A DNA stretch of 64,000 nucleotides from an uncultured Candidatus Saccharibacteria bacterium (lineage in GTDB: Bacteria > Patescibacteriota > Minisyncoccia > Phycocordibacterales > Phycocordibacteraceae). Of this stretch, positions 16,399-29,227 are shown piece by piece. Both the position numbers and the translations under genes were made by a program. The stretch spans positions 6,307 to 70,306 of the forward strand of contig CAZJKG010000002.1 of assembly GCA_964546795.1 (NCBI GenBank). The letters run 5' to 3'. The first letter of the stretch is position 1. Every line of letters starts with the position of its first letter. Under the pieces are notes generated by a model, which was given only the letters and a program-made list of their open reading frames with translations, did not search any database and had not been told where the DNA came from.

Positions 16399-16536
16399 CT
16401 AATCCTTCTTTGAAATGTGCTGCCAGAGCCAGATGCCCAGAAGAACGAGGTCAACAAACACCACTAGCCATGTGAGAAAGCCGTACGTTCCCACTCCTCC
16501 CATCATGCCTTCGTATCCGTATCCATATCCCATCAT
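16399..16536 (-). CDS. Unannotated small Met/Gly/Tyr-rich membrane peptide (45 aa) downstream of the multicopper oxidase
   Basis: Minus-strand ORF ATGATG...TAG encoding 'MMGYGYGYEGMMGGVGTYGFLTWLVVFVDLVLLGIWLWQHISKKD'. It falls below the ORF-track length cutoff. The Met-rich N-terminus is followed by one TM helix. The RBS is weak, so coding status is uncertain. Confidence 0.3.
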   Translation of the reverse strand: MMGYGYGYEGMMGGVGTYGFLTWLVVFVDLVLLGIWLWQHISKKD

Positions 16537-16599
16537 AGGTTGCTGTGATTAGTTCACTGTAGTAATCGACCTTTGTTCATTATAATCCTTCTGCCGTGA

Positions 16600-18171
16600 T
16601 TATTGCACCTCGAAGCTGAACATCATTCCGGTTTCAAGGTGCTCGGCGATATGGCAGTGTGCCATCCATTCGCCGGGATTGGTGATAACAAGCAGAATAT
16701 CGACATATTGTCCAGCAGGAACGAGTACTGTGTCTTTCCACACAAGATTCGTTTGTGGTACGCCGTTCCGGTCAAGCACTAGAAATTGCTGACCGTGAAA
16801 GTGTACCGGGTGTTGCATCGGGTGGTCCGAATTTGCGTCGTTGCTGATTCTGATTTTCACAGCATCGCTGACCTTAAATTTCCAATGAATGTCCATATTG
16901 GCCTTATCGGTGTCTTCGTCCACAATTTTCCAATCCGTCATTCCCGTATTCGACATCGCATTCATCATCGCCATAGTGTCCTCCCATTCGATGCCGTCAG
17001 GACTAAGCATCATGACATTGCTCATAACGGTGCCATCCGACATTCTGTGACTACCGCCCATGTTGGACATCATGCCACCCATCATGTCGATGGTGAGTGT
17101 GAGACGTTTGTCAATCGGTCTGTCAAAATACTGGCGGTACGGATCAATACTTTCAACTGCTGCGCTATTGGTACGAAGTGTTGCAAATGCTTCGGCGTAG
17201 GACGGTAAAGATTCATCGCCTGACACTGAAATCATTCCGAGCGCGTAGGTCTTGTCGGGGGTCTTATGTTGCATCGTGTATGACCCCTCCCTATCAAATA
17301 AAACTTCTACGACCGCGCGTTCCGAAGGTCCGATGATAACGGCATTTTTCCACTCCTCGCGCTCGCTTGCGCCGCCATCTCCGCCGACAAGTTTCATTTT
17401 AACCCCGGAAATAGCGAAGTTAAACGGCCGGGCATTTGCCGAATTGGTGATGTAAAAGCGGATGACCTCTCCCGTTCTCACAGGAAGTTGATACTCCGGC
17501 TCACCATTGACGAGCATCACGTTGCCGAAGCGGCCCATGAGCGTGCGATCGGCTCCTTTCGTGCTCAGATTGATCTTGCCGTCTTCAATGAGAATGTCAT
17601 CGAAAAAGAGCGCGACCTCGCGATTAACGGGGCTCCAGTACGTAGTATCGGAGGGAACGACAAGATAATTGCCATAGAGGCCGAGTTCCTGCTCGAAATC
17701 CTCACGGACATGTGGGTGATACCAATACACACCAGCGTCTGGGAATTTGAGCTTGTAGGAAAATGTTTCGCCCGGATGCATCTCTTTTTGCGACGTCTGC
17801 GAGCCGTCAAACTGGTTGTCCATGCGAACGCCGTGCGAGTGTAGCAGGGTCGGCATGTCCATATTGTTCTTGAAGTTGATAGTGATCTGTGCTCCCTGCG
17901 GGACTTTAATGAGAGGTCCCGGGATCGATCCATTGTACGCGAGCATCCGATACTCCGTACCGTTAATGTTTTTCGCGACATAGCTTGCAGTGAGGGCATA
18001 GGTGTCGCCGTTCTTCAACTCGACAGTTTCAGACGCTTTTACTTCAGACAACCCGGCAATGTCGGTACTGACGTACGCATTACTTCCACTATACGGCGAT
18101 CTCTGATAGAGAAAGAAACCACTGATAACTACCACTGCAACGAGAAGCACATGTAAGTATTTTTCATTCAT
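16600..18171 (-). CDS. Multicopper oxidase (CueO/laccase-like), secreted
   Basis: Type-1/type-3 copper motifs 'HPMQHPVHFHGQQF' and 'WMAHCHIAEHLETGMMF'. N-terminal TM/signal. A Met-rich segment 'MMGGMMSNMGGSHRM' is typical of CueO-type Cu(I)-binding inserts. Confidence 0.85.
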   Translation of the reverse strand: MNEKYLHVLLVAVVVISGFFLYQRSPYSGSNAYVSTDIAGLSEVKASETVELKNGDTYALTASYVAKNINGTEYRMLAYNGSIPGPLIKVPQGAQITINFKNNMDMPTLLHSHGVRMDNQFDGSQTSQKEMHPGETFSYKLKFPDAGVYWYHPHVREDFEQELGLYGNYLVVPSDTTYWSPVNREVALFFDDILIEDGKINLSTKGADRTLMGRFGNVMLVNGEPEYQLPVRTGEVIRFYITNSANARPFNFAISGVKMKLVGGDGGASEREEWKNAVIIGPSERAVVEVLFDREGSYTMQHKTPDKTYALGMISVSGDESLPSYAEAFATLRTNSAAVESIDPYRQYFDRPIDKRLTLTIDMMGGMMSNMGGSHRMSDGTVMSNVMMLSPDGIEWEDTMAMMNAMSNTGMTDWKIVDEDTDKANMDIHWKFKVSDAVKIRISNDANSDHPMQHPVHFHGQQFLVLDRNGVPQTNLVWKDTVLVPAGQYVDILLVITNPGEWMAHCHIAEHLETGMMFSFEVQ

Positions 18172-18176
18172 AGTAA

Positions 18177-20318
18177 TTATAATATTTTACGGCGAAGCAA
18201 TACGGCATTGATTGCTACGATAACCGTTGAAACGCTCATGAGTATCGCGGCGATTGCCGGCTCTAATACGACACCTTTTGATGCCAGCACGCCAGCCGCA
18301 AGCGGAATGGCGACCACATTGTACCCCGTGGCCCAAAAGAGATTCTGAATCATTTTCGCATACGTAAGCTTTGAAAGTTTGATGATCTTCGGAATATCCC
18401 TCGGGTCGTTTTTTACCAAGATGATTCCCGCCGATTCAATCGCGACATTTGTGCCAGCGCCAATCGCAATGCCGAGGTCAGCTTGCGTCAGAGCGGGAGC
18501 GTCATTGATACCGTCTCCGACCATCGCTACTTTTTTACCTTCGCTTTGGAGCAATCTTACTTTTTCGGCCTTTTGGCCCGGCATGACTTTGGCAAAATAT
18601 TCATCAATACCGAGTTCTCCTGCTACCCACGAAGCAACATCCTCCGAATCACCGGTAATCATCGCTGTCTTGACGCCAAGATTCTTCAGAGTTTGAATCG
18701 CCTCACGCGACTCCTCCCTGATGATGTCCGAAAGAGCGATACTGCCGAGAAGTTTCTTATCCACAATCACGTGAATGACCGTTTTGCCTTCTTTTGACAG
18801 CGTATCTATTTGATTTTGATACTCGCCTGAAATCAGTATGGTATGTTCTGTAAGCAAATCATCATTGCCGACGTACGCCTCTTTATTTTCTACACGTCCT
18901 TTTGCGCCTTTACCGGCAATGCGGAAAAAATCCGTTACCGGCATTAGAACAATGTTCCGCTTCTGGGCCTCCGCGACCATCGCCTTCGCTAGCGAGTGTT
19001 CTGAATGGCTATTGACCGAGGCCGCGATACTGAGAATGGTATCTTGGGAAACGTTGTTGCTCGCGATGATGGCGGCAACGCCGAATTCACCTTTGGTAAG
19101 GGTCCCTGTTTTATCGAACAACACCATATCAATGCTACGCGCCGCTTCAAGCGCACGGCGTTCTTTAACCAGCAATCCGTTCTTCGCTGCCATCGTGGTT
19201 GAAATAGATGCGACCAGAGGAACTGCGAGCCCGAGAGCGTGCGGACAGGTGATGACAAGGACGGCTACGAGCCGCTCGGTCGCAATCACAATACCCGCCC
19301 CGACTAGAACCCACACGCCGAAGGTAATCGTGCCGACCACGAGTGCGATGATGGTGAGATAGAACGCCGCTTGGTCCGAAAGCATCTGGAGACGCGACTT
19401 CGACGCTTCCGCATCGGCAACAAGCCGCATTACGCCTGCAAGAAACGTATGCTCGCCTATCTTTTCTATAGCTACCTTGATGCTTCCATCGCCGTTTGTG
19501 GAGCCAGCAATAACTGACGCGCCTATAGATTTTTCTACCGGACGCGATTCTCCGGTAATGACTGACTCATTTATGTCTGACCTCCCTTCAACGATCTTCC
19601 CATCGGCGGGGATCTTCGCTCCCGGCTTTACTAACACAATATCGCCTGCCCGAAGGTCGCCCAGTGGTATGATCTCGGTCTTATTCCCTCTTATGACTTC
19701 TGCCGTATCGGGCAAAAGTTTCGCCAATTCCCGCAATGCTCCCTGGGCACCTTGCACCGACTTCATCTCTATCCAGTGCCCGAGAAGCATAATGGCGATG
19801 AGCGATGAGAGTTCAAACAATAGATCGTGATGCCCGCCCAGAAGTATTGAAAAGAAACTGTAGAGGTACGCGGCTGTGATGGCGATGGCGATAAGCGTCA
19901 TCATCCCGGGCAATCGGGCTTGGAGTTCGCGATACGCGCTTGCTAGGAAAATCCACCCGCAATAGAAGAAAACGAAGCTTCCGACAATAAGGAAAACGTA
20001 CTGCGACCCGGGGAACTCCGGGGCCTGTATATTAAAGATTATTTTCGCCATTTCCGAATAGAAGAAAATTGGAATGGTCAGCGCAAAAGCAACCCAAAAC
20101 TTCCTCAGGAAAGATTCGGTTTGATGGCCCGCGTGCTTACCTGCCCCGCTGTCATGCGAAGCATGTACTTTGGGGTCGTGCGCTTCGTGCTCGTCGGCTT
20201 TCTTTGCGTCGGTCGGGATGAGATTCATTCCACACTCCGGACAGATGCCGGGCGTATCCCGTACAATCTCCGGATGCATCGGACAAGTATATAAATGTGT
20301 ATCGTGGGAATTTTTCAT
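18177..20318 (-). CDS. copA: Copper-translocating P1B-type ATPase (CopA-like)
   Basis: N-terminal Cys-rich metal-binding motif 'CPMHPE...CPECGM', TM motif 'CPH' ('ITCPHALGLAVP'), phosphorylation site 'DKTGTLT', and 'GDGINDAPAL'. Confidence 0.9.
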   Translation of the reverse strand: MKNSHDTHLYTCPMHPEIVRDTPGICPECGMNLIPTDAKKADEHEAHDPKVHASHDSGAGKHAGHQTESFLRKFWVAFALTIPIFFYSEMAKIIFNIQAPEFPGSQYVFLIVGSFVFFYCGWIFLASAYRELQARLPGMMTLIAIAITAAYLYSFFSILLGGHHDLLFELSSLIAIMLLGHWIEMKSVQGAQGALRELAKLLPDTAEVIRGNKTEIIPLGDLRAGDIVLVKPGAKIPADGKIVEGRSDINESVITGESRPVEKSIGASVIAGSTNGDGSIKVAIEKIGEHTFLAGVMRLVADAEASKSRLQMLSDQAAFYLTIIALVVGTITFGVWVLVGAGIVIATERLVAVLVITCPHALGLAVPLVASISTTMAAKNGLLVKERRALEAARSIDMVLFDKTGTLTKGEFGVAAIIASNNVSQDTILSIAASVNSHSEHSLAKAMVAEAQKRNIVLMPVTDFFRIAGKGAKGRVENKEAYVGNDDLLTEHTILISGEYQNQIDTLSKEGKTVIHVIVDKKLLGSIALSDIIREESREAIQTLKNLGVKTAMITGDSEDVASWVAGELGIDEYFAKVMPGQKAEKVRLLQSEGKKVAMVGDGINDAPALTQADLGIAIGAGTNVAIESAGIILVKNDPRDIPKIIKLSKLTYAKMIQNLFWATGYNVVAIPLAAGVLASKGVVLEPAIAAILMSVSTVIVAINAVLLRRKIL

Positions 20319-20339
20319 ACAAGTACACGGAGACCTTCC

Positions 20340-21017
20340 TTATTCGAAGCGCAACTCAATTTTGTCCTTATCGTGCATGACGTAGTTCTCGTACTCAATG
20401 TTTTCCTCCCCATTTACGGTCATCGTTATATTTTTGCCAAATGATTGCATATCCCTGCCCCAATTCGTGAAAAATTGACCAAGAGTAATATCCTGTTTGC
20501 GAACGAGACCTTGAAACTCAAGATGGATAATAGGTAGATCATCATGCGTATGCATCGGCATGTGGACCGCACCGATGCCAATATTTTGCGGAATCTCCTG
20601 CTTTTCACCTTTTACGTAAATGGTAAGTTCCGGATGCCAGTGAAAACCTGATCGGGAGACAATATCTGATTCCGGAATTGGAGGCCTTGTGGCGACATAC
20701 CAGATAAGACCTCCAATCATCGCAATGGTCAGACCGCCGCCCAAAATCCATGAGACAATTTTCTGAAAATTACGTTTCTGCATAGCCGCTTCTTTTGCCT
20801 CCATCTTCACCTGCTGTTTTAGCGCTTTGCGCTCAGTTTTGGTGGGCATCGATTCATTTGTTAATGTGACTGCATGTTTTATTATATCTAAATTACAACT
20901 TTTATGCTCTTTGCACCACGCTTGGCATTTTTCAGCGAATTCTTTGTTCTCATACAGAAGATGGCATTCTTCGCACTGATAGTATTGTTTATTATTATGT
21001 GAAATTATTTTTGTCAT
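20340..21017 (-). CDS. Membrane-anchored protein with an N-terminal zinc-ribbon and a His/Met-rich extracytoplasmic domain, possibly copper-binding
   Basis: N-terminus 'QCEECHLLYENKEFAEKCQAWCKEH' has four Cys. One TM helix follows. The C-terminal domain carries 'HWHPE' and 'AVHMPMHTHDD', which resemble Cu-binding Met/His motifs. It sits directly upstream of copA in the same operon. Confidence 0.45.
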   Translation of the reverse strand: MTKIISHNNKQYYQCEECHLLYENKEFAEKCQAWCKEHKSCNLDIIKHAVTLTNESMPTKTERKALKQQVKMEAKEAAMQKRNFQKIVSWILGGGLTIAMIGGLIWYVATRPPIPESDIVSRSGFHWHPELTIYVKGEKQEIPQNIGIGAVHMPMHTHDDLPIIHLEFQGLVRKQDITLGQFFTNWGRDMQSFGKNITMTVNGEENIEYENYVMHDKDKIELRFE

Positions 21018-21036
21018 GGTTATTTTTGATTAATCA

Positions 21037-21579
21037 TTAAATCTTACAGATCGCTGGATTTTGGATTTGTTTTGCCATCATAGAGAGAGATATCGCAAGT
21101 AGTATCACACCAAGAATACCGAATTCGCCGCCGTTAAGTGGCAGAAATGTCAGTATCCAAGATGCGCCGAAGATCGAAAAAATGCTTGTGAGGAGAAGTG
21201 ACCCGCATGCGGCGCATCCCATACCGACCATACCGCTCGTTATCCCAAAAAATCCAGTAGTAATTCCGCTCTGCTTCACATCAGTGATCCTACGACGCAA
21301 GAAGTAGACAATCATGGCGAGATTGATGCCAAACAAAACAGCAATAGTAATCGTATACGAGGCAGAGAGTGGGGTGAAGTTTGTTGTAATAGAACCGAGC
21401 AAGCTAATCGGCAGACCAAGCTTCTGTGAAAAAGATACTCCCGAATGTCCCATGACTTCCACAATCAATGAAATGTTTGGGAGCCATACGGCAAAAGCAA
21501 AGACGATTGCACTCGTCGCAAGAGCAATGAGTACATACGAGGGTTTTTGAAATACTTTTTGCAGAGCGTGAACGATCAT
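21037..21579 (-). CDS. Polytopic membrane protein with an intramembrane or loop CXXC motif ('GCAACGS')
   Basis: 180 aa, about five TM helices. The stop of the upstream DsbA gene (21582) is 3 bp away. Could be a DsbB/VKOR-like redox partner, but lacks their canonical signatures. Confidence 0.4.
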   Translation of the reverse strand: MIVHALQKVFQKPSYVLIALATSAIVFAFAVWLPNISLIVEVMGHSGVSFSQKLGLPISLLGSITTNFTPLSASYTITIAVLFGINLAMIVYFLRRRITDVKQSGITTGFFGITSGMVGMGCAACGSLLLTSIFSIFGASWILTFLPLNGGEFGILGVILLAISLSMMAKQIQNPAICKI

Positions 21580-21581
21580 TA

Positions 21582-22304
21582 TTATTTTCCCTGCAGGGCC
21601 AGATCAATAAGTTGTTTCACCGCAGAGTACGGCTGCGCTCCGGAGAGCGGATATTTTTTTCCGTTCTTTGCAATCACAATGCTCCATGGTGTTCCGTTTC
21701 CGCCCGTTGCCGCGGCATTTTGTACATCTTCCTCAATATGCTTGGTGAATTTCCCGCTAGTCAGACAGGTATTGAACTTCGCCATATCAAGACCTACGTA
21801 TGCGGCTATCTTGAGGAGCTCGGCCGGATCTAGTCCGTTATTGGAGGGGGTTACTTCATAGAGGCGATCCGTGTAGGTCCAGAATGGGTTGTTGCCCCCT
21901 TGATCGCCGGCGCATTCAAGAGCGACCGTTTCATTCCGTGCCTTTGGGTGGAGTTGGTCCAAAGGGAAATGACGATAGACCCATGCAACTCTTCCGTCCT
22001 TGCCGTATTCATCCATGACTTGCTTCATGGTCTCGTGGAATCGTTTGCAGAAAGGACATTCAGGATCCGAGTATTCAACTATTTTGACCGGCGCATCAGG
22101 ATTGCCTCGAATATGGTCGGCGGCGCTTATCGGCCTCATCTTATCCAAATCGCTTGTCTGCGGCGCCCCTGCCGCCGCTTGGGGCTGCGCCGCCGGAATG
22201 GTTGTAGAACTACCGTGGAAAAATATGGCACCGGCGATGAGAACTCCGGCGATAATGATGGCCGAAGAAATTGATATATTGCTTTGCTTTGAACCTGTTT
22301 CCAT
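21582..22304 (-). CDS. DsbA-family thiol:disulfide oxidoreductase (third copy in window)
   Basis: TM anchor plus active site 'YSDPECPFCKRFHE' in a DsbA fold. Confidence 0.8.
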   Translation of the reverse strand: METGSKQSNISISSAIIIAGVLIAGAIFFHGSSTTIPAAQPQAAAGAPQTSDLDKMRPISAADHIRGNPDAPVKIVEYSDPECPFCKRFHETMKQVMDEYGKDGRVAWVYRHFPLDQLHPKARNETVALECAGDQGGNNPFWTYTDRLYEVTPSNNGLDPAELLKIAAYVGLDMAKFNTCLTSGKFTKHIEEDVQNAAATGGNGTPWSIVIAKNGKKYPLSGAQPYSAVKQLIDLALQGK

Positions 22305-24363: not shown

Positions 24364-25941
24364 TTATGTATTGGAGAGCAAGTTAAGGACCGCCGTATAT
24401 GCGGAACTGATCAAGAATCCGCGATCAAAACTAGTGGAGGTTAGTGGAGAAAGCGGTGATATATAGGAACTGCTGTCAGGATAGGTGCTTCCGGAAGACG
24501 GTGGCGCGTACGAACTGTCCGGTGAGGATTGACTCTTTTCTTCGTAGGTCTCAGTACCTCCTGAAGACGGAGAATACGAAGGTGATGGATATGTATTTTG
24601 ATCTTGTTGGTATTTCTGATACTCGGATTCATACTGCTTTTGATATTCTTGCTGATACTGACTCTGGTATTGCTTCTGATACTCGTCTTGATATTGATTT
24701 TGAAAATCTCCGGTATTCGGAGGAAGAGACATCATTCCGTCCGGTACGTCGCCCTGTCTTCCTTGCATCACCCTCGTGGGAAAGGCCTCTATTCCCTCCT
24801 CTGTGCCCCGGAAACTCCGCTCGCCCTCAAATCCCTGCATCATCCCCTCCGGAGAGAGATGCTCGTCAGGACGCTGCATGAAGCCATGTTCTTCGGCAAA
24901 TTCTTGGCATTCATTTTGATGTGACGCATCCTCGCAATACGTTTTACACTCAAATCCTTTGCAACCGCCCGGACCGGTACTATTGAAAAGTTTCTCGGCC
25001 TGATCGAGCTGTTCTTGTGGAATAAGATCGTGCTCTTTGGCAAAGGCAAAACACACTTCGCGATTGTCCGGATTATCGCAGTATGTGCGGCATTCTTCTC
25101 CGCGGCAGCCGCCGGGACCCTCGATATTCATGAATTTCCGCGCACGCTCGCTATCCTCTTTCGAAATGAGACCGTTCTCTTCCGCGAACGCAAGACACTC
25201 CTCACTATGAGTGGAATCTTCGCAATAGGTTCTGCATTCAACGCCTCTACAACCTCCCGGACCGGTTTTGCCGATAAAGTGCTTTGCTTTGACAAGCTCT
25301 TCCTGCGACATGAGTCCATGTTCTTCGGCAAAAGCAAGACACACCTCCGCATGCGAGACATCCTCGCAGTATATTCGACATTCCTCTCTTTTACAGCCAC
25401 CTGGACCCGCTTCAGTTCCCATCCTCTTTGCCATAACTGCCTCTTCTTTTGAAATGAATCCGTTTTCCTCCGCAAACGCGAGACATTCGTCGAAGTGTGC
25501 ATCGTCCTCGCAGTACGCTTTGCATTCAATACCATGACAACCACCCGGTCCTGACTTCTCTTTGAGAATTCGCGCATATTTAGCATCCTCCGCTTTTATG
25601 ATCCCGTGCTCCTCGGCAAAGTCAATGCACTCTTCAAAATGTTCCTTGACTTCACAGTACGCTCGGCACTCCACCCCCATGCAGCCCCCCGGACCTTCGA
25701 TACTGCCGATTTTCCGAGCTATCGCTGCGTCCTCCTTACCAATCAGATCGTGCGCTTCAGCAAAAGAGAGACATTGATTGATATTCGCTTTAAGATCGCA
25801 ATATACTTTGCATGCTTCCTTCGATTCACAACCACCGAGTTCTGCAACCGGAAACATGATATCGACCTCCGCGGCGTACGCTACGCCTCCGACGAGCAGT
25901 GTGAGCGCAAGAAAGTTCGTCGCGAATATCCTGCGGGACAT
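24364..25941 (-). CDS. Secreted cysteine-rich tandem-repeat protein with a Q/Y/S/P-rich low-complexity C-terminal region
   Basis: Signal peptide 'MSRRIFATNFLALTLLVGGVAYAA'. Eight tandem ~44-aa repeats of consensus 'GPGGCxGxECxxYCEDxxHxxECLAFAEEHGLIsxEE..kAkk', each with four Cys and one His. The tail is 'QNQYQDEYQKQYQSQYQQEYQKQYESEYQKYQQDQ' followed by an S/P/Y-rich stretch. Confidence 0.7.
   Translation of the reverse strand: MSRRIFATNFLALTLLVGGVAYAAEVDIMFPVAELGGCESKEACKVYCDLKANINQCLSFAEAHDLIGKEDAAIARKIGSIEGPGGCMGVECRAYCEVKEHFEECIDFAEEHGIIKAEDAKYARILKEKSGPGGCHGIECKAYCEDDAHFDECLAFAEENGFISKEEAVMAKRMGTEAGPGGCKREECRIYCEDVSHAEVCLAFAEEHGLMSQEELVKAKHFIGKTGPGGCRGVECRTYCEDSTHSEECLAFAEENGLISKEDSERARKFMNIEGPGGCRGEECRTYCDNPDNREVCFAFAKEHDLIPQEQLDQAEKLFNSTGPGGCKGFECKTYCEDASHQNECQEFAEEHGFMQRPDEHLSPEGMMQGFEGERSFRGTEEGIEAFPTRVMQGRQGDVPDGMMSLPPNTGDFQNQYQDEYQKQYQSQYQQEYQKQYESEYQKYQQDQNTYPSPSYSPSSGGTETYEEKSQSSPDSSYAPPSSGSTYPDSSSYISPLSPLTSTSFDRGFLISSAYTAVLNLLSNT
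24774..25860 (-). repeat. Tandem ~132-bp coding repeats (8 copies) within the Cys-rich protein gene
   Basis: Periodic recurrence at protein level of 'GPGGC..EC..YCE....H..EC.AFAEEHG'. Boundaries approximate. Confidence 0.65.
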
Positions 25942-25942
25942 G

Positions 25943-26209
25943 TTATTCGAAAGGGTTATACTTCACGCCCTCGTATGGGTTGATCTTCACGTCATCGAGA
26001 GGATTGGCCGATACGCCGCTTAGAGGATTTTCGTCGGCAATGTTTGATTCAACAAGGGGAACCGGTGTCACTTTCGTTCCTGCCACATACCCTAATGGGA
26101 TGCCGATGACAAGACCGACAACGATGCCGATAAGCACGAAAAGATAAGGCGGTTTTGGTTGGTCCATATGCTTTTCATTATACGGGGTTATACCCGGAGC
26201 ACTTTCCAT
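25943..26209 (-). CDS. Small membrane protein (88 aa), hypothetical
   Basis: Single TM helix 'LFVLIGIVVGLVIGIPLGYVAG'. Starts 2 bp after the stop of the Cys-rich protein gene. Confidence 0.4.
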   Translation of the reverse strand: MESAPGITPYNEKHMDQPKPPYLFVLIGIVVGLVIGIPLGYVAGTKVTPVPLVESNIADENPLSGVSANPLDDVKINPYEGVKYNPFE

Positions 26210-27288: not shown

Positions 27289-28203
27289 TTAATAATCCTT
27301 CCAAAGTTTGTCCTGATAAGGATCTACAATTTTCCCCTTACTATTCCGGACTTCAAAATGGAGATGCGGTCCGACACCCCCATAACCCCCTGAGTAAGCA
27401 ATGATCTGTCCTTCTTTCACGGCGACCGATTTAGTGTAGTCAGTAAGTTGAGCTTCAATTTCATCTACCAATTTTGTGCAGTGCAAGAGCCAGGAAACAT
27501 AGCTATTGGCGTGTTTGATATAGAAAGAGTGCCATCCTTCCCAAGCAGTAGGATTATTGAGCCCAAGATTCTTTAGTGCCCACGTTCTGTTAACTCCATC
27601 AATCGGATCAGTTTGTGCTTTAAATAAGTCCCCGTCTGCAGGGGCTATAAGTTGCGTTCCTGGAATGCACTTAAAGTCATAACCCGCATGGCCATCATAA
27701 TTTAGATAAAACGTTGGCCCATATTTGTCTCCTGCACCTGGTGCACCTACATAATTAATTTCCCCGGCAGAGAAAAATGGAGATGGAACTTTCTTTGCAT
27801 ACCCTAAAGCACTCGTTCCGGCACAAGGATCCCCGTCTCCGACTTCTCCATTAAAAGATCGTGTCTTTTGATCTTTCGCATTCAAGCCCCACGGCTTATT
27901 GCTACTTGGATCAATCGCTGTGCCCATATGGTCAATCACGGCAGTGATTTTTGCGGTACGGGACGTAACGGGCCTTCCATTTGCGTCATTGAGTTTGACT
28001 GGACAAATGAGGAATCCGGTGCTCGTTGGTACGACTGGAGCGGGAGCCGGTTCTGGCGCTGGCGGCACAATCACTGGAGGTGGTACAGGTTGCGGAGTCG
28101 GAGGTAGATTAATCGGGGCCGGTACAGGTTGAACCTTTGATTTAGAAAGGTTCGTAAGGAAAGTCTTAAGTACCTCTCCCAAGATTTTGAGAAACGACTG
28201 CAT
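27289..28203 (-). CDS. M23 family metallopeptidase (LytM-like peptidoglycan endopeptidase) with a Pro-rich N-terminal linker
   Basis: C-terminal 'GPHLHFEVRNSKGKIVDPY' is the M23 HxH zinc-site signature. Pro-rich 'PVPAPINLPPTPQPVPPPVIVPPAPEPAPAPVVP'. The track ORF starts at TTG 28230; the first ATG is at ~28203. The TATAAT of R2 is only ~7 nt upstream, so the transcript may be leaderless. Confidence 0.8.
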   Translation of the reverse strand: MQSFLKILGEVLKTFLTNLSKSKVQPVPAPINLPPTPQPVPPPVIVPPAPEPAPAPVVPTSTGFLICPVKLNDANGRPVTSRTAKITAVIDHMGTAIDPSSNKPWGLNAKDQKTRSFNGEVGDGDPCAGTSALGYAKKVPSPFFSAGEINYVGAPGAGDKYGPTFYLNYDGHAGYDFKCIPGTQLIAPADGDLFKAQTDPIDGVNRTWALKNLGLNNPTAWEGWHSFYIKHANSYVSWLLHCTKLVDEIEAQLTDYTKSVAVKEGQIIAYSGGYGGVGPHLHFEVRNSKGKIVDPYQDKLWKDY

Positions 28204-28210
28204 ATCTACT

Positions 28211-28267
28211 ATTATACCGTCAAGCTCCAATTGAGTTTTCTAGAACCTTAAATCGACCCTCCTCGGA
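28211..28267 (-). promoter_or_regulatory. Island promoter/operator element, copy R2
   Basis: Duplicate of R1. The minus strand reads ...AAAACTCAATTGGAGCTTGACGGTATAAT immediately 5' of the M23 peptidase ATG. Confidence 0.45.
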
Positions 28268-28309: not shown

Positions 28310-29227
28310 TTAGATCATAATCTTTTCTGAACGAATGAGATGATCCATCTTCTGATAAGCATGGATAGCAGTTGTGTGGTCTTTCTTTTTCATCACCTTA
28401 GCTATTTGTGGGAAAGATAATTTCGCATTTCTCCTTAAGAAATATATGGCGAGATGTCTAGGAAAAACAAGATTCGCCATTCTTCTGCTTCCCAATAAAT
28501 CGTCGATTGGTATAGCGTATGCCTTACTTATACTTGCAATGATATCTTTAACTTCTACCAGTTCGGACGGATCGATTGGTATTGGTTTTTTAGGGGGTGC
28601 CGGAACTGCCCCATTGAGTTTGAGTATTGTTGTATTTAGAATTTGTCTTATTCGCTCCCGCGTGATGCCAAATTTCCCTGCAATTACTTCATAAGTCTTG
28701 CCTTCGAGTCTTAGTCTCATTATTTCATTTTCTCTTTCATTCATTCTGATGTTGCCCGTAGCACGAGCTGGAGCTGAATTGTAAATAAAAGCTGGATTCC
28801 CTTTCTCTAGCACACCAAAGAAGTCATCGATGATAGAAAATTCTGTAAAAGCTGTAATTTTCTGTCCATCGTCATAAACAATTTTCATTTCATTATCAAA
28901 ATCATTTGATGAGATTTGCTTCAACAAATCGTGTAGAACTTCATTTCTTTTGTTGCGATAACGGTCAAATAGTCCTCTCTTTTCTTTGGGTAACCACTCG
29001 CTATCAAATAATAATTTAATTAATTCGGAAAGATTGTACTGAACGATTCTCTTTCTCAAAGCAGCTAAAATAGCTGGGTCTGCATCTCTTATCGATAGCG
29101 ACAATTTAGTTTCGACAAACAATTTTATTAGACTTTCTATGTAGGCACTTTGTAATACAAAAGCTTCGAGAAGAAGGTTCTTCTGTCCATAGTTTTCTAT
29201 TCTTTCTTTTAGGTCATCTTTCCTCAT
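28310..29227 (-). CDS. DNA-binding regulator fusing sigma-70 region 4 (HTH) to a DnaA C-terminal (domain IV) DNA-binding domain
   Basis: 'ERENEIMRLRLEGKTYEVIAGKFGITRERIRQI' matches sigma-70 region 4. 'VKDIIASISKAYAIPIDDLLGSRRMANLVFPRHLAIYFLRRNAKLSFPQIAKVMKKKDHTTAIHAYQKM' matches DnaA domain IV, including the DHTT(V/A)(I/L)HA signature. There is no AAA+ domain. About 38% GC. Confidence 0.7.
   Translation of the reverse strand: MRKDDLKERIENYGQKNLLLEAFVLQSAYIESLIKLFVETKLSLSIRDADPAILAALRKRIVQYNLSELIKLLFDSEWLPKEKRGLFDRYRNKRNEVLHDLLKQISSNDFDNEMKIVYDDGQKITAFTEFSIIDDFFGVLEKGNPAFIYNSAPARATGNIRMNERENEIMRLRLEGKTYEVIAGKFGITRERIRQILNTTILKLNGAVPAPPKKPIPIDPSELVEVKDIIASISKAYAIPIDDLLGSRRMANLVFPRHLAIYFLRRNAKLSFPQIAKVMKKKDHTTAIHAYQKMDHLIRSEKIMI

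What the first reader, a model, noticed from the sequence alone, without database searches (positions are those of the whole stretch)
24364..25941. Secreted protein with eight tandem four-cysteine repeats and a Q/Y-rich low-complexity tail
After a signal peptide there are eight ~44-aa repeats of consensus 'GPGGC-x-G-x-EC-x2-YCE-x4-H-x2-EC-x-AFAEEHG(L/I)(I/M)-x-EE'. Each has 4 Cys and 1 His, about 33 Cys in total. A Q/Y/E/K-rich tail ('QYQDEYQKQYQSQYQQEYQKQY...') and an S/P/Y-rich segment follow. I do not recognise this repeat as a described domain. It could be a disulfide-knotted structural or adhesive module or a metal-binding repeat. It lies beside the copper-resistance and DsbA cluster, and three DsbA paralogs in the window could serve its oxidative folding. 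The Q/Y-rich tail resembles prion-like or adhesive low-complexity regions.
Basis: seen in the sequence. Interest (0 to 1): 0.7.

Follow-up and report, generated by a model that had tools for sequence, protein, structure and literature searches.

The report
Patescibacterial secreted four-cysteine helical-repeat protein
This is a real, exported protein made of seven 48-residue, four-cysteine helical repeats; it belongs to a large unnamed family seen here only in the tiny "candidate phyla radiation" bacteria and is almost always encoded right after a small membrane protein with four NPF motifs, so it is probably a cell-surface structural or tethering module, not a copper-linked one.

Summary
The ORF is real (window 24364-25941, minus strand, 525 aa). 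It is under purifying selection: dN/dS is 0.14 against an 89%-identical ortholog. There are seven 48-aa repeats, not eight of 44, and 28 Cys, not 33. His is present in 5 of 7 repeats.

The repeat defines a family of about 1,700 clusters at 50% identity. Every named member is a "hypothetical protein" from Patescibacteria/CPR. All four Cys are present in 2074 of 2076 repeats.

New finding: an 88-aa single-pass membrane protein ending in four NP[F/L/Y] motifs, spaced 8 residues apart, lies directly upstream. This holds in the window, in 11 of 11 annotated homolog loci, and in at least 71 of 79 metagenome loci. No other neighbour is conserved, and that includes the copper and DsbA genes.

Best reading: a Sec-exported, disulfide-stapled helical rod, tethered by a disordered spacer, a C-terminal hydrophobic helix and/or the NPF partner. 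A Cys4 metal site is not excluded.

It is an undescribed domain family and gene pair of unknown function.

The parts
25943..26209 (-). Partner gene: an 88-aa single-pass membrane protein. The TM lies at about residues 21-43. The C-terminus carries four NP[L/L/Y/F] motifs at residues 61, 69, 77 and 85 (period 8) and ends in NPFE. Its stop codon TAA is 1 nt before the ATG of the repeat gene.
   Evidence: The same kind of gene lies directly upstream in L001, L003-L007, L009-L011, L132 and L133, and in at least 71 of 79 metagenome loci. Of 60 family members, 58 have exactly four motifs. There is no Pfam hit.
24364..25941 (-). Whole ORF of the four-Cys repeat protein (525 aa plus stop). The mature protein is about 55.7 kDa, with pI 4.6 and net charge about -47.
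   Evidence: dN/dS is 0.14 against L007.
25873..25941 (-). Sec-type signal peptide, residues 1-23. It has an n-region (MSRR), a hydrophobic core and an AYA|A cleavage motif. There is no lipobox Cys.
   Evidence: Read from the sequence. AF2 predicts a helix at 11-22 with low pLDDT. Homologs all have equivalent AxA-type N-termini.
25696..25863 (-). N-terminal cap motif (DIMFPVAELGGC, residues 27-38) plus repeat 1 (residues 34-82, C-x5-C-x3-C-x8-C).
   Evidence: The cap motif h-x-[FY]-P-[IV]-x-x-L-[GDE]-x-C is present in 110 of 121 family proteins. pLDDT is about 96. Repeat 1 is the only repeat with clear positional orthology between proteins.
24832..25695 (-). Repeats 2-7, residues 83-370, six units of exactly 48 aa. 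The unit reads GPGGC-x4-C-x2-YC-x8-C-x2-FA-x3-G, followed by a third helix.
   Evidence: AF2 gives three helices per unit with pLDDT about 90-96. All four Cys are present in 2074 of 2076 family repeats.
24706..24831 (-). Disordered linker, residues 371-412.
   Evidence: AF2 pLDDT is below 50 over 370-414.
24598..24705 (-). Q/Y/E/K-rich segment, residues 413-448. It is predicted as a single long alpha-helix. Its eight Tyr lie at segment positions 5, 9, 13, 17, 21, 25, 29 and 32, i.e. every 4th residue except the last step. The DNA is a 12/24-nt tandem repeat.
   Evidence: AF2 helix 413-448, block pLDDT 79-89. Tyr positions. TRF finds periods of 24 and 12 at 24631-24703. There is a one-unit (4-aa) indel against L007.
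24424..24597 (-). S/P/Y/T-rich disordered spacer, residues 449-506.
   Evidence: Composition. AF2 pLDDT is below 50. The equivalent P/G/Q/E/S-rich spacers in homologs range from 4 to 373 aa, median 193.
24367..24423 (-). C-terminal hydrophobic/amphipathic segment RGFLISSAYTAVLNLLSNT, residues 507-525. This is a candidate membrane or partner anchor.
   Evidence: In the family, the last 16 residues have mean hydropathy +0.58 against -0.90 for the preceding 70. The last residue is Arg in 48 of 121 members. Uncharged runs are mostly 6-16 aa. AF2 predicts a helix at 513-523 with low confidence.

Best explanation
The ORF is a member of a large, unnamed protein family that, as far as named members show, is restricted to Patescibacteria (CPR).

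Shown:
- It has a cleavable Sec signal peptide and a conserved N-terminal cap.
- It has seven tandem 48-residue units, each predicted with high confidence to be a small three-helix bundle with four invariant Cys.
- These are followed by a long disordered spacer and a short hydrophobic C-terminal helix.
- It is encoded immediately after, and almost certainly co-transcribed with, a small single-pass membrane protein carrying exactly four NP[F/L/Y] motifs.

Inferred mechanism:
- After Sec export, the DsbA/MdbA-like oxidoreductases that CPR genomes encode (three in this window) oxidise the four Cys of each unit into two disulfides. These would staple the N-terminal turn and helices 1 and 2.
- My guess at the pairing is C2-C4 and C1-C3. 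This comes from helix-hairpin register only.
- The result would be a rigid, acidic, protease-resistant rod of equivalent units.
- The rod would be held at the cell surface by the flexible S/P/Y-rich (in relatives P/G/Q-rich) wall-spanning spacer and the C-terminal amphipathic helix, and/or by binding the NPF-motif tail of the co-encoded membrane protein.
- Its job would be structural: an envelope spacer, tether or adhesive fibre. In relatives it also displays extracellular modules (Kazal inhibitor domains, ConA-like lectin domains).
For: Family and identity:
- More than 1726 homologs, and all named ones are Parcubacteria-group/Patescibacteria hypothetical proteins.
- An exhaustive profile search finds 1697 representatives at 50% identity.

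Fold:
- AF2 gives pLDDT 92.4 and pTM 0.73 for repeats 3-5, with three helices per unit.
- The full-length model keeps pLDDT of about 90 over residues 30-355.

Structural rather than catalytic role. The conserved positions in the repeat are all of structural type:
- the GPGG turn;
- the four Cys;
- core residues Y13, F26, A27, L32, I33, A38, A41;
- helix N-terminal acids and caps (E9, D16-P17, E21-E22, S34-x-E36-E37) and C-terminal K42/K43.
Internal repeats are as similar between proteins as within one, so they look interchangeable. Repeat number varies from 5 to 13.

Oxidising, extracellular location:
- A signal peptide with an AxA site is present in the query and its homologs.
- About 22% of relatives carry Kazal domains, which by established knowledge require disulfides, in the same chain. 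Others carry LamG or further Cys-rich modules.
- Total Cys count is even in 103 of 121 members.
- CPR genomes are enriched in MdbA-like oxidoreductase plus VKOR (preprint 10.1101/335083). Three DsbA-like genes lie in this window.

Tether:
- The spacer is predicted to be disordered.
- The C-terminal hydrophobic tail is conserved.

Partner:
- A 4xNPF gene lies directly upstream in 12 of 12 annotated loci, counting the window, and in at least 71 of 79 metagenome loci.
- The look-up is reciprocal: starting from three NPF proteins, a Cys-repeat protein lay downstream in 3 of 3.
- Spacing between the two genes runs from -4 to about 100 nt, and is 1 nt in the window.
- No other neighbour is conserved.
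Against: - The redox state of the Cys is not shown. The tools do not expose AF2 coordinates, and the Cys are so invariant that correlated loss cannot reveal the pairing. A Cys4 metal site remains possible.
- There is no direct evidence of surface location, abundance or expression.
- The C-terminal hydrophobic run is too short for a canonical TM in most members and is absent in at least one LamG-type member.
- The topology of the NPF protein is ambiguous by the positive-inside rule, so its NPF tail could be cytoplasmic and never meet the rod.
- The number of NPF motifs is fixed at four while repeat number varies, so simple one-to-one binding is unlikely.
- About 10% of loci lack a detectable partner.
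Confidence: 0.5

Rival explanations
1. Extracytoplasmic metal-binding repeat protein. The four invariant Cys of each unit stay reduced and form a Cys4 site or small thiolate cluster for Cu(I), Zn(II) or another thiophilic metal. The array would then buffer or sequester metal outside the cell, working with the copper ATPase and multicopper oxidase.
For: - The four Cys are absolutely invariant: 2074 of 2076 repeats.
- Two of them lie i/i+4 on one helix face, one on the next helix and one in the preceding turn, so all four sulfurs probably converge.
- Glu precedes C2 and C4 in 68-74% of repeats.
- In the window the gene lies 4-8 kb from CopA and a multicopper oxidase.
- In the Ryanbacteria-like loci L009 and L010 a multicopper oxidase is directly upstream of the NPF gene.
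- Many of these organisms live in anoxic groundwater (my own knowledge).
Against: - The copper linkage is not conserved. In 120 metagenome loci there were 0 multicopper oxidases and 2 CopA, and none in L001-L006, L011, L132 or L133.
- The His is not conserved (H 66% / N 30%) and sits at a helix-cap position.
- Cys makes up only about 8% of the repeat, which has a normal aromatic/aliphatic core and three helices. This is unlike metallothioneins or Csp-type bundles.
- Obligately disulfide-bonded Kazal domains occur in the same polypeptide in about 22% of relatives.
- DsbA/MdbA-like oxidants are encoded nearby and are typical of CPR.
- There is no Pfam or NCBIfam metal-binding family hit.
Confidence: 0.2
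2. A released (not cell-attached) effector or inhibitor. The rod would be a stable carrier secreted into the medium or onto a host cell, for example to deliver protease-inhibitor or lectin modules or to block host defences. The C-terminal hydrophobic peptide and the NPF protein would serve export or maturation rather than anchoring.
For: - Kazal domains (up to three copies) and Laminin_G_3 modules occur in relatives.
- There is a cleavable signal peptide.
- There is no LPXTG, PEP-CTERM or PGF-CTERM sorting motif and no lipobox (NCBIfam).
- The C-terminal hydrophobic run is too short for a TM in most members.
Against: - The window protein and about 78% of relatives have no effector-like module, only repeats plus spacer.
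- A long Pro/Ser-rich spacer followed by a terminal hydrophobic helix is the layout of tethered surface proteins.
- The obligate pairing is with a membrane protein.
- The repeats lack conserved surface residues that would indicate a specific target.
Confidence: 0.15
3. Divergent member of an already described Cys-rich repeat family (EGF-like, granulin, Kazal, CHCH/twin-CX3C and the like), or a non-functional or spurious ORF.
For: - The Cys-rich periodic sequence looks superficially like such repeats.
- Some homologs are annotated 'Kazal-type serine protease inhibitor'.
Against: - There are no Pfam or NCBIfam hits even at E <= 10.
- There is no PDB sequence hit.
- The Kazal hits in relatives map to a separate C-terminal domain that the window protein lacks.
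- dN/dS is 0.14, and the family has about 1,700 clusters.
Confidence: 0.03

Closest known systems
Unnamed 'hypothetical proteins' of Patescibacteria. Examples: A2939_01365 (Parcubacteria bacterium RIFCSPLOWO2_01_FULL_48_18, P0005), A3B35_00385 (Ca. Kaiserbacteria, P0022), and the ortholog on CAZJZB010000004.1 (L007, 89% identity).
   Same: True homologs (E down to 1e-179). They share the signal peptide, N-cap, GPGGC-x4/5-C-x3-C-x8-C repeats, low-complexity spacer, C-terminal hydrophobic tail and upstream 4xNPF gene.
   Different: The window protein is at the short end of the family: 7 repeats against a mode of 9 among the 121 closest proteins. It lacks the Kazal, LamG and extra half-repeat modules. 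It has a Q/Y-periodic helix and an S/P/Y spacer where others have a P/G/Q/E/F-rich one.
Disulfide-stapled helical hairpins: CHCH (twin CX9C), small Tim (twin CX3C) and plant alpha-hairpinins (CX3C-Xn-CX3C).
   Same: A small helical unit with a CX3C on one helix, presumably cross-linked to neighbouring elements by two disulfides. It would work like them in stabilising a mini-domain too small for a large hydrophobic core.
   Different: There is only one CX3C. The other two Cys are a single Cys on helix 2 and one in the preceding GPGG turn. There is a third helix, and the units form tandem arrays of 5-13 in a secreted bacterial protein. There is no sequence or significant structural match.
Tethered surface-protein layout (recalled from my own knowledge): archaeal S-layer glycoproteins (Ser/Thr/Pro-rich stalk plus C-terminal anchor) and Gram-positive wall-spanning Pro-rich regions. 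Also the C-terminal amphipathic-helix anchor of E. coli PBP5.
   Same: The order of parts matches: cleaved signal peptide, folded repeat ectodomain, disordered Pro/Ser-rich spacer, terminal hydrophobic helix. The ectodomain is acidic.
   Different: No PGF-CTERM, LPXTG, SLH or other recognised anchoring signal is present. The repeat fold is unrelated. Anchoring has not been demonstrated. The dedicated 4xNPF partner has no counterpart in those systems.
Cys-lined copper storage proteins (Csp1/Csp3) and metallothioneins.
   Same: Cys placed i/i+4 on helices, an exported protein (as Csp1 is), and copper genes nearby in this window.
   Different: Csps are single four-helix bundles with 13-18 core Cys, and metallothioneins are 15-30% Cys without a regular fold. 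Here there are 4 Cys per 48 aa and a conventional hydrophobic core. There is no family match, and the copper gene linkage is not conserved.

Membership tests
Unnamed CPR four-Cys helical-repeat family (defined here) | Tandem units of about 48 aa matching G-P-G-G-C-x4/5-C-x2-[YF]-C-x8-C-x2-F-[AG], with all four Cys present | tested here: met
   Seven units, each E of about 1e-23 to 1e-25. Family logo from 1070 repeats. 2074 of 2076 repeats keep all four Cys.
Unnamed CPR four-Cys helical-repeat family (defined here) | Signal peptide followed by the N-cap motif h-x-[FY]-P-[IV]-x-x-L-[GDE]-x-C | tested here: met
   DIMFPVAELGGC at residues 27-38. The motif is present in 110 of 121 members.
Unnamed CPR four-Cys helical-repeat family (defined here) | Low-complexity spacer plus short hydrophobic C-terminal tail | tested here: met
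   Residues 371-506 and 507-525.
Unnamed CPR four-Cys helical-repeat family (defined here) | A 4xNP[FLY] single-TM protein encoded immediately upstream on the same strand | tested here: met
   Window 25943-26209. Also 11 of 11 other annotated loci and at least 71 of 79 metagenome loci.
EGF-like / granulin | Six (EGF) or twelve (granulin) Cys in a beta-hairpin-based fold, with a Pfam model match | tested here: not met
   Four Cys per unit, an all-alpha prediction, and no Pfam hit at E <= 10.
Kazal-type inhibitor domain (PF00050/PF07648) | Six-Cys Kazal signature matching the Pfam model | tested here: not met
   No hit in the window protein. In relatives, Kazal is a separate C-terminal domain.
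CHCH / twin CX3C / alpha-hairpinin | Two antiparallel helices each carrying a CX9C or CX3C pair, giving two inter-helix disulfides | tested here: not met
   The pattern is C-x4/5-C-x3-C-x8-C. Only helix 1 carries a CX3C, and helix 2 has one Cys. No Pfam hit.
CHCH / twin CX3C / alpha-hairpinin | Cys actually oxidised to disulfides | not testable with these tools
   Model coordinates are not exposed, and there is no biochemical data.
Copper storage protein (Csp) / metallothionein | A Cys-lined four-helix-bundle core (Csp), or more than 15% Cys with no aromatic core (metallothionein), plus a family model match | tested here: not met
   About 8% Cys, with conserved Y13/F26 in the core and three short helices per unit. 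No Pfam or NCBIfam hit.
Copper storage protein (Csp) / metallothionein | Metal occupancy of the Cys sites | not testable with these tools
   This needs ICP-MS or structures with metals.
Sortase / exosortase / archaeosortase substrates (LPXTG, PEP-CTERM, PGF-CTERM) | A C-terminal tripartite signal: the motif, then a TM of about 20 aa, then a basic tail | tested here: not met
   No LPxT[GAS], PEP or PGF motif. No NCBIfam sorting-domain hit. Hydrophobic runs are mostly 6-16 aa, although a terminal Arg is common (48 of 121).

The most novel reading that the evidence does not exclude
The gene pair would be a CPR-specific two-component envelope system. The single-pass membrane protein would present four evenly spaced NPF motifs that dock the disulfide-stapled helical rod, through the rod's repeats or its aromatic-stripe helix. 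Arrays of these rods would form the still-unidentified surface layer or attachment fibres by which Parcubacteria-type episymbionts space and hold themselves against host cells. Kazal and lectin modules would have been added in some lineages to protect or target the contact.
Probability: 0.2. Interest if true: 0.8.

Novelty: new variant of a known kind. Interest (0 to 1): 0.55.

Why it matters
Patescibacteria (CPR) make up a large share of bacterial diversity. Most are uncultured and are thought to live attached to other cells, yet the proteins of their envelope and attachment apparatus are almost entirely 'hypothetical'.

This work does three things.
- It defines a widespread, lineage-restricted extracellular domain of about 1,700 clusters at 50% identity. 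The domain has no Pfam or NCBIfam model and no structural relative in the PDB.
- It shows that the domain travels as a fixed two-gene module with an equally undescribed 4xNPF membrane protein.
- It removes a tempting but unsupported link to copper resistance.

The result gives database curators two new families to model. It gives experimentalists a concrete, tractable candidate for a CPR surface structure. The repeat itself is a compact, high-confidence three-helix unit with four invariant Cys in arrays of interchangeable units, so it may also be of interest as a protein-engineering scaffold.

Tried and rejected
The single-protein scan then found only two loci. I switched to a degenerate DNA pattern for GPGGC-x5-C-x2-YC on metagenome contigs, which worked.
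- The first structure-prediction attempts failed for technical reasons.
The afdb50 fold library was unavailable.
- I tried to infer disulfide connectivity from correlated Cys loss. No repeat had lost a Cys pair.
- I tried to infer the topology of the NPF protein from flanking charges. The result was ambiguous.
- Promoter and terminator scans were at background level.
- I tested a copper/DsbA functional link by neighbourhood statistics and rejected it. The adjacent multicopper oxidase in L009 and L010 is treated as coincidence or lineage-specific.
- I checked whether the partner-less loci share a distinguishing C-terminus. There was no clear pattern.
- Six literature searches found no description of this repeat or of the NPF protein. 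The terms included Patescibacteria or Parcubacteria with cysteine-rich, Kazal or disulfide, and the string GPGGC.
- Pfam hits at E 0.4-0.6 (DUF2095, YrzK, RepB_C) were dismissed as noise.
Full report
**1. The observation**

The coordinates delimit a genuine ORF, but it is on the minus strand: ATG at 25941, stop at 24364-24366, 525 aa.

After an N-terminal signal peptide (MSRRIFATNFLALTLLVGGVAYA|AE) there are seven tandem units, not eight. The period is 48 aa, not about 44, and 49 in the first unit. The units cover residues 34-370. Each unit has four Cys in the pattern C-x4-C-x3-C-x8-C, with x5 in unit 1.

The Cys fall at 38/44/48/57 and then at exactly 87/92/96/105 + 48n. That gives 28 Cys in all, not about 33. 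The 'one His' is present in five of the seven units and is Asn in the other two.

The repeats are 33-58% identical to one another. Only this ORF in the 64-kb window carries them. At the DNA level only the Q/Y region is a detectable tandem repeat, with periods of 12 and 24 nt at 24631-24703.

The gene is not an artefact. Against an 89%-identical ortholog (L007, contig CAZJZB010000004.1), dN/dS is 0.14 overall, 0.12 in the repeats and 0.19 in the tail. The only length difference is one 4-residue unit in the Q/Y repeat.

**2. What it is not**

- hmmscan against Pfam at E <= 10 gives only noise at E 0.4-0.6. NCBIfam gives nothing.
- phmmer against all PDB sequences gives nothing below E = 4.
- So there is no match to EGF, granulin, Kazal or any other curated Cys-rich repeat.

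**3. The family**

A word-seeded search of 5.8 billion proteins returned more than 1726 hits, the best at E = 1e-179. Every hit that carries a name is a 'hypothetical protein' from Patescibacteria/CPR. The named groups are the Parcubacteria group and the candidate phyla Kaiserbacteria, Sungbacteria, Azambacteria, Wildermuthbacteria and Kuenenbacteria.

An exhaustive hmmsearch with a profile of the seven window repeats, run against 1.84 billion representatives at 50% identity, found 1697 proteins at E <= 1e-3 and 871 at E <= 1e-30.

Members share one architecture:
- a signal peptide;
- an N-cap motif, h-x-[FY]-P-[IV]-x-x-L-[GDE]-x-C, in 110 of 121 members;
- 5-13 repeats, with a mode of 9 among the 121 closest proteins;
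- a low-complexity spacer of 4-373 aa, rich in P, G, E, Q, S and F;
- a short hydrophobic C-terminal tail. The last 16 residues have mean hydropathy +0.58 against -0.90 before them, and the last residue is Arg in 48 of 121.

About 22% of members carry one to three Kazal domains between the repeats and the tail. Some carry a ConA-like Laminin_G_3 domain or further Cys-rich modules.

The repeat logo from 1070 units reads G92-P90-G99-G86-C100-x-[GS]-x-E68-C100-[RK]-x-Y87-C100-[ED]-[DN]-P57-x-[H66/N30]-x-[ED]-E74-C100-h-x-F94-A78-x-x-[HN]-G78-[LF]-[IM]-x-x-E-E-A-x-R-A-[KR]-K. The numbers are percent occurrence. In a wider set of 2076 near-complete units from 359 proteins, 2074 keep all four Cys.

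**4. Structure**

AlphaFold2 on repeats 3-5, with 120 homologs in the alignment, gave mean pLDDT 92.4 and pTM 0.73. Each unit has three helices:
- H1, residues 8-15 of the unit, carrying C2 and C3 one turn apart;
- H2, residues 17-29, carrying C4;
- H3, residues 35-46.

C1 sits in the GPGG turn before H1.

The full-length model keeps pLDDT of about 90 across residues 30-355. It predicts disorder for 356-412 and 449-512. It predicts a single 36-residue helix for the Q/Y segment (pLDDT 79-89). In that helix seven of the eight Tyr fall at every fourth residue and the last at a three-residue step, which gives an aromatic stripe. It also predicts a low-confidence terminal helix at 513-523.

The conserved positions can all be read as structural: a turn, Cys staples, a hydrophobic core, acids at helix N-termini, and lysines at the H3 C-terminus. 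The D-P-x-[H/N] element is a helix cap. That explains why His and Asn interchange there, and it argues against His as a ligand. This last point is inference.

Internal repeats are as similar between proteins as within a protein. Only repeat 1 shows positional orthology. The units therefore look like interchangeable building blocks.

**5. Surroundings: a conserved partner and nothing else**

Directly upstream on the same strand is an 88-aa ORF at 25943-26209. Its stop codon TAA is followed by one base and then the ATG of the repeat gene.

It encodes a short N-tail, one TM segment, and a C-terminus with NPL, NPL, NPY and NPF at residues 61, 69, 77 and 85, ending in ...NPFE.

The same kind of gene directly precedes the repeat gene in every annotated homolog locus I fetched:
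- L001/L002, L003, L004, L005, L006 and L007;
- the loci of the extended LamG-type and 1431-aa members, L132 and L133.

Starting instead from three NPF proteins, the downstream gene was a nine-repeat family member in 3 of 3 cases (L009, L010, L011).

A profile of six such proteins retrieved 60 relatives of 71-173 aa, most of them 75-100 aa (two are apparently mis-called longer ORFs). They have no Pfam domains (apart from PF03721 on one of the two mis-called longer ORFs) and no informative names. Of these, 58 have exactly four NP[FLY] motifs, and they end in NPF[E/K].

For an unbiased sample I scanned metagenome contigs with the degenerate DNA pattern for GPGGC-x5-C-x2-YC.
- The scan returned 120 loci, and 112 contain a family ORF.
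- In 79 loci the N-cap is present and at least 450 nt of upstream sequence is available.
- Of those 79, 69 have an upstream ORF ending in three or more NP[FLY...] motifs, and two more are caught by the HMM. That makes at least 71 of 79, or 90%.

All-against-all clustering of the flanking ORFs found no other neighbour family in more than 6 of 108 loci.

Homologs of the window's own neighbours are essentially absent from the 120 loci: multicopper oxidase 0, CopA 2, DsbA-like 1, AI-2E 1, M23 0.

So the copper/DsbA neighbourhood of the window is not a conserved association. That neighbourhood is a multicopper oxidase at 16600-18171, a Cu P-type ATPase at 18177-20318, and a DsbA-like gene at 21582-22304.

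A multicopper oxidase does lie directly upstream of the module in the two syntenic Ryanbacteria-like loci L009 and L010. I treat this as chance or as lineage-specific.

**6. How it most likely works**

Shown: it has the features of an exported protein. It is built from high-confidence three-helix units with four invariant Cys, followed by a spacer predicted to be disordered and a hydrophobic terminal helix. It is encoded with a dedicated small membrane protein.

Inferred: after Sec export and signal-peptidase cleavage, the four Cys of each unit are oxidised to two disulfides by DsbA/MdbA-like enzymes.
- CPR genomes are enriched in such enzymes and in VKOR (preprint 10.1101/335083).
- This window alone has three DsbA-like genes.
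- VKOR lies just upstream of the module in L006.
- From the hairpin register (turn at unit residue 16; C2 lies six residues before it and C4 seven after), I guess C2-C4 and C1-C3. This is not tested.

The main argument for oxidation is that about one fifth of relatives carry Kazal domains, which require disulfides, in the same chain. Others carry further even-numbered Cys modules.

The product would be a stiff, very acidic rod of equivalent units. The mature protein has pI 4.6 and net charge about -47.

The order of parts is rod, then a flexible Pro/Ser-rich spacer, then a terminal hydrophobic helix. Tethered surface proteins have this layout. Archaeal S-layer glycoprotein stalks, Gram-positive wall-spanning regions and the amphipathic C-terminal anchor of PBP5 are analogies from my own knowledge, not tests.

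The 4xNPF protein is the obvious candidate for a dedicated anchor or receptor. Its N-terminus looks like an uncleaved signal anchor: a short tail, usually a Lys, then about 20 hydrophobic residues ending in GGGYYYG. That would put the charged helix and the NPF motifs outside the cell. However, the charge balance is ambiguous.

The motifs are fixed at four while repeat number varies from 5 to 13. Any binding is therefore to a constant part of the rod protein, or the four motifs fold on their own.

I give this overall model a confidence of 0.5. The identity claims alone (secreted, CPR-specific, undescribed repeat family with a conserved partner) I would put above 0.9.

**7. Rivals**

- A reduced Cys4 metal site, confidence 0.2. 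The geometry probably brings all four sulfurs together, and copper genes are nearby in two lineages, so this cannot be excluded. Against it stand the lack of conserved copper linkage, the non-conserved His, the ordinary hydrophobic core and low Cys density, and the co-occurring Kazal domains.
- A released effector or inhibitor carrier, confidence 0.15. This fits the Kazal and LamG variants and the absence of a recognised sorting signal. It fits less well the plain-rod majority and the membrane partner.
- Membership of a known Cys-repeat family, or a spurious ORF, confidence 0.03. This is effectively refuted.

**8. Novelty and verdict**

Sequences of this family are already in public databases by the thousand, so the protein is not new as a sequence. 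I found no family model, no structure and no paper describing either the repeat or the 4xNPF partner.

In kind it is a secreted Cys-rich tandem-repeat protein, which is a familiar category. It is built from an undescribed all-alpha unit and tied to an undescribed partner. I therefore rate it 'new variant of a known kind', with interest 0.55.

The structural/adhesive reading survives. The copper/DsbA and prion-like suggestions do not.

Noticed in passing
window 25943-26209 (-): An 88-aa single-TM protein with four NP[L/L/Y/F] motifs exactly 8 residues apart, ending in NPFE. It belongs to an undescribed family and is almost always encoded directly upstream of the Cys-repeat gene.
   Followed up: yes
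window 24598-24705 (-); DNA repeat 24631-24703: The Q/Y 'low-complexity' tail is a 12/24-nt tandem DNA repeat that encodes an aromatic residue at every 4th position. AF2 predicts it as one long helix. It differs by one 4-aa unit from the 89%-identical ortholog L007. A similar F/Y period-4 helix occurs in the Kaiserbacteria homolog P0022.
   Followed up: partly
window 11878-22304 (-): A metal/redox gene cluster: ZIP transporter (11878-12594), two adjacent DsbA-like genes (12637-13314, 13326-14084), multicopper oxidase (16600-18171), Cu P-type ATPase with an HMBD (18177-20318), two unknown ORFs (20340-21017 with a weak DUF7128 hit; 21037-21579), and a third DsbA-like gene (21582-22304). The unknown ORFs at 14092-14796 and 15291-16352 have no Pfam hit.
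   Followed up: partly
L009 2290-5975 and L010 2173-6029: In two syntenic Ryanbacteria-like loci a multicopper oxidase lies immediately upstream of the NPF gene and the Cys-repeat gene. No multicopper oxidase was found in 120 other family loci, so this is probably coincidental, but it does recur with the window's own copper neighbourhood.
   Followed up: partly
L058 151-3896: Two family genes sit in tandem, each preceded by its own NPF-type ORF. This looks like duplication of the whole two-gene module.
   Followed up: no
P0125 / L133 3001-7296; P0153 / L132 3001-6189: These are extended family members. P0125 (1431 aa) adds a Kazal-like segment and many 'CPSGQYW(N/Y)...' Cys-containing repeats before the usual hydrophobic tail, and a PMT-family glycosyltransferase lies two genes downstream. 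P0153 adds a Laminin_G_3 domain and lacks the hydrophobic tail. Both keep the upstream NPF gene.
   Followed up: partly
window 28310-29227 (-): A 305-aa protein combining a Sigma70 region-4 HTH with a DnaA C-terminal DNA-binding domain, which is an unusual pairing. Next to it is an M23 peptidase with a Pro-rich N-terminal region (27289-28230).
   Followed up: no
window 7357-10233 (-): A 958-aa protein with HerA/DUF87 and TraG/TraD C-terminal hits, i.e. like a type IV secretion coupling protein. A similar DUF87/TraG protein lies near the family gene in L003 (15738-17525).
   Followed up: no
L007 (contig CAZJZB010000004.1): The closest public relative of this window region (89% aa identity for the target; the same partner gene) is labelled 'uncultured Candidatus Saccharibacteria'. 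The best named protein homologs, however, are from Kaiserbacteria and the Parcubacteria group. I did not check the taxonomic label.
   Followed up: no
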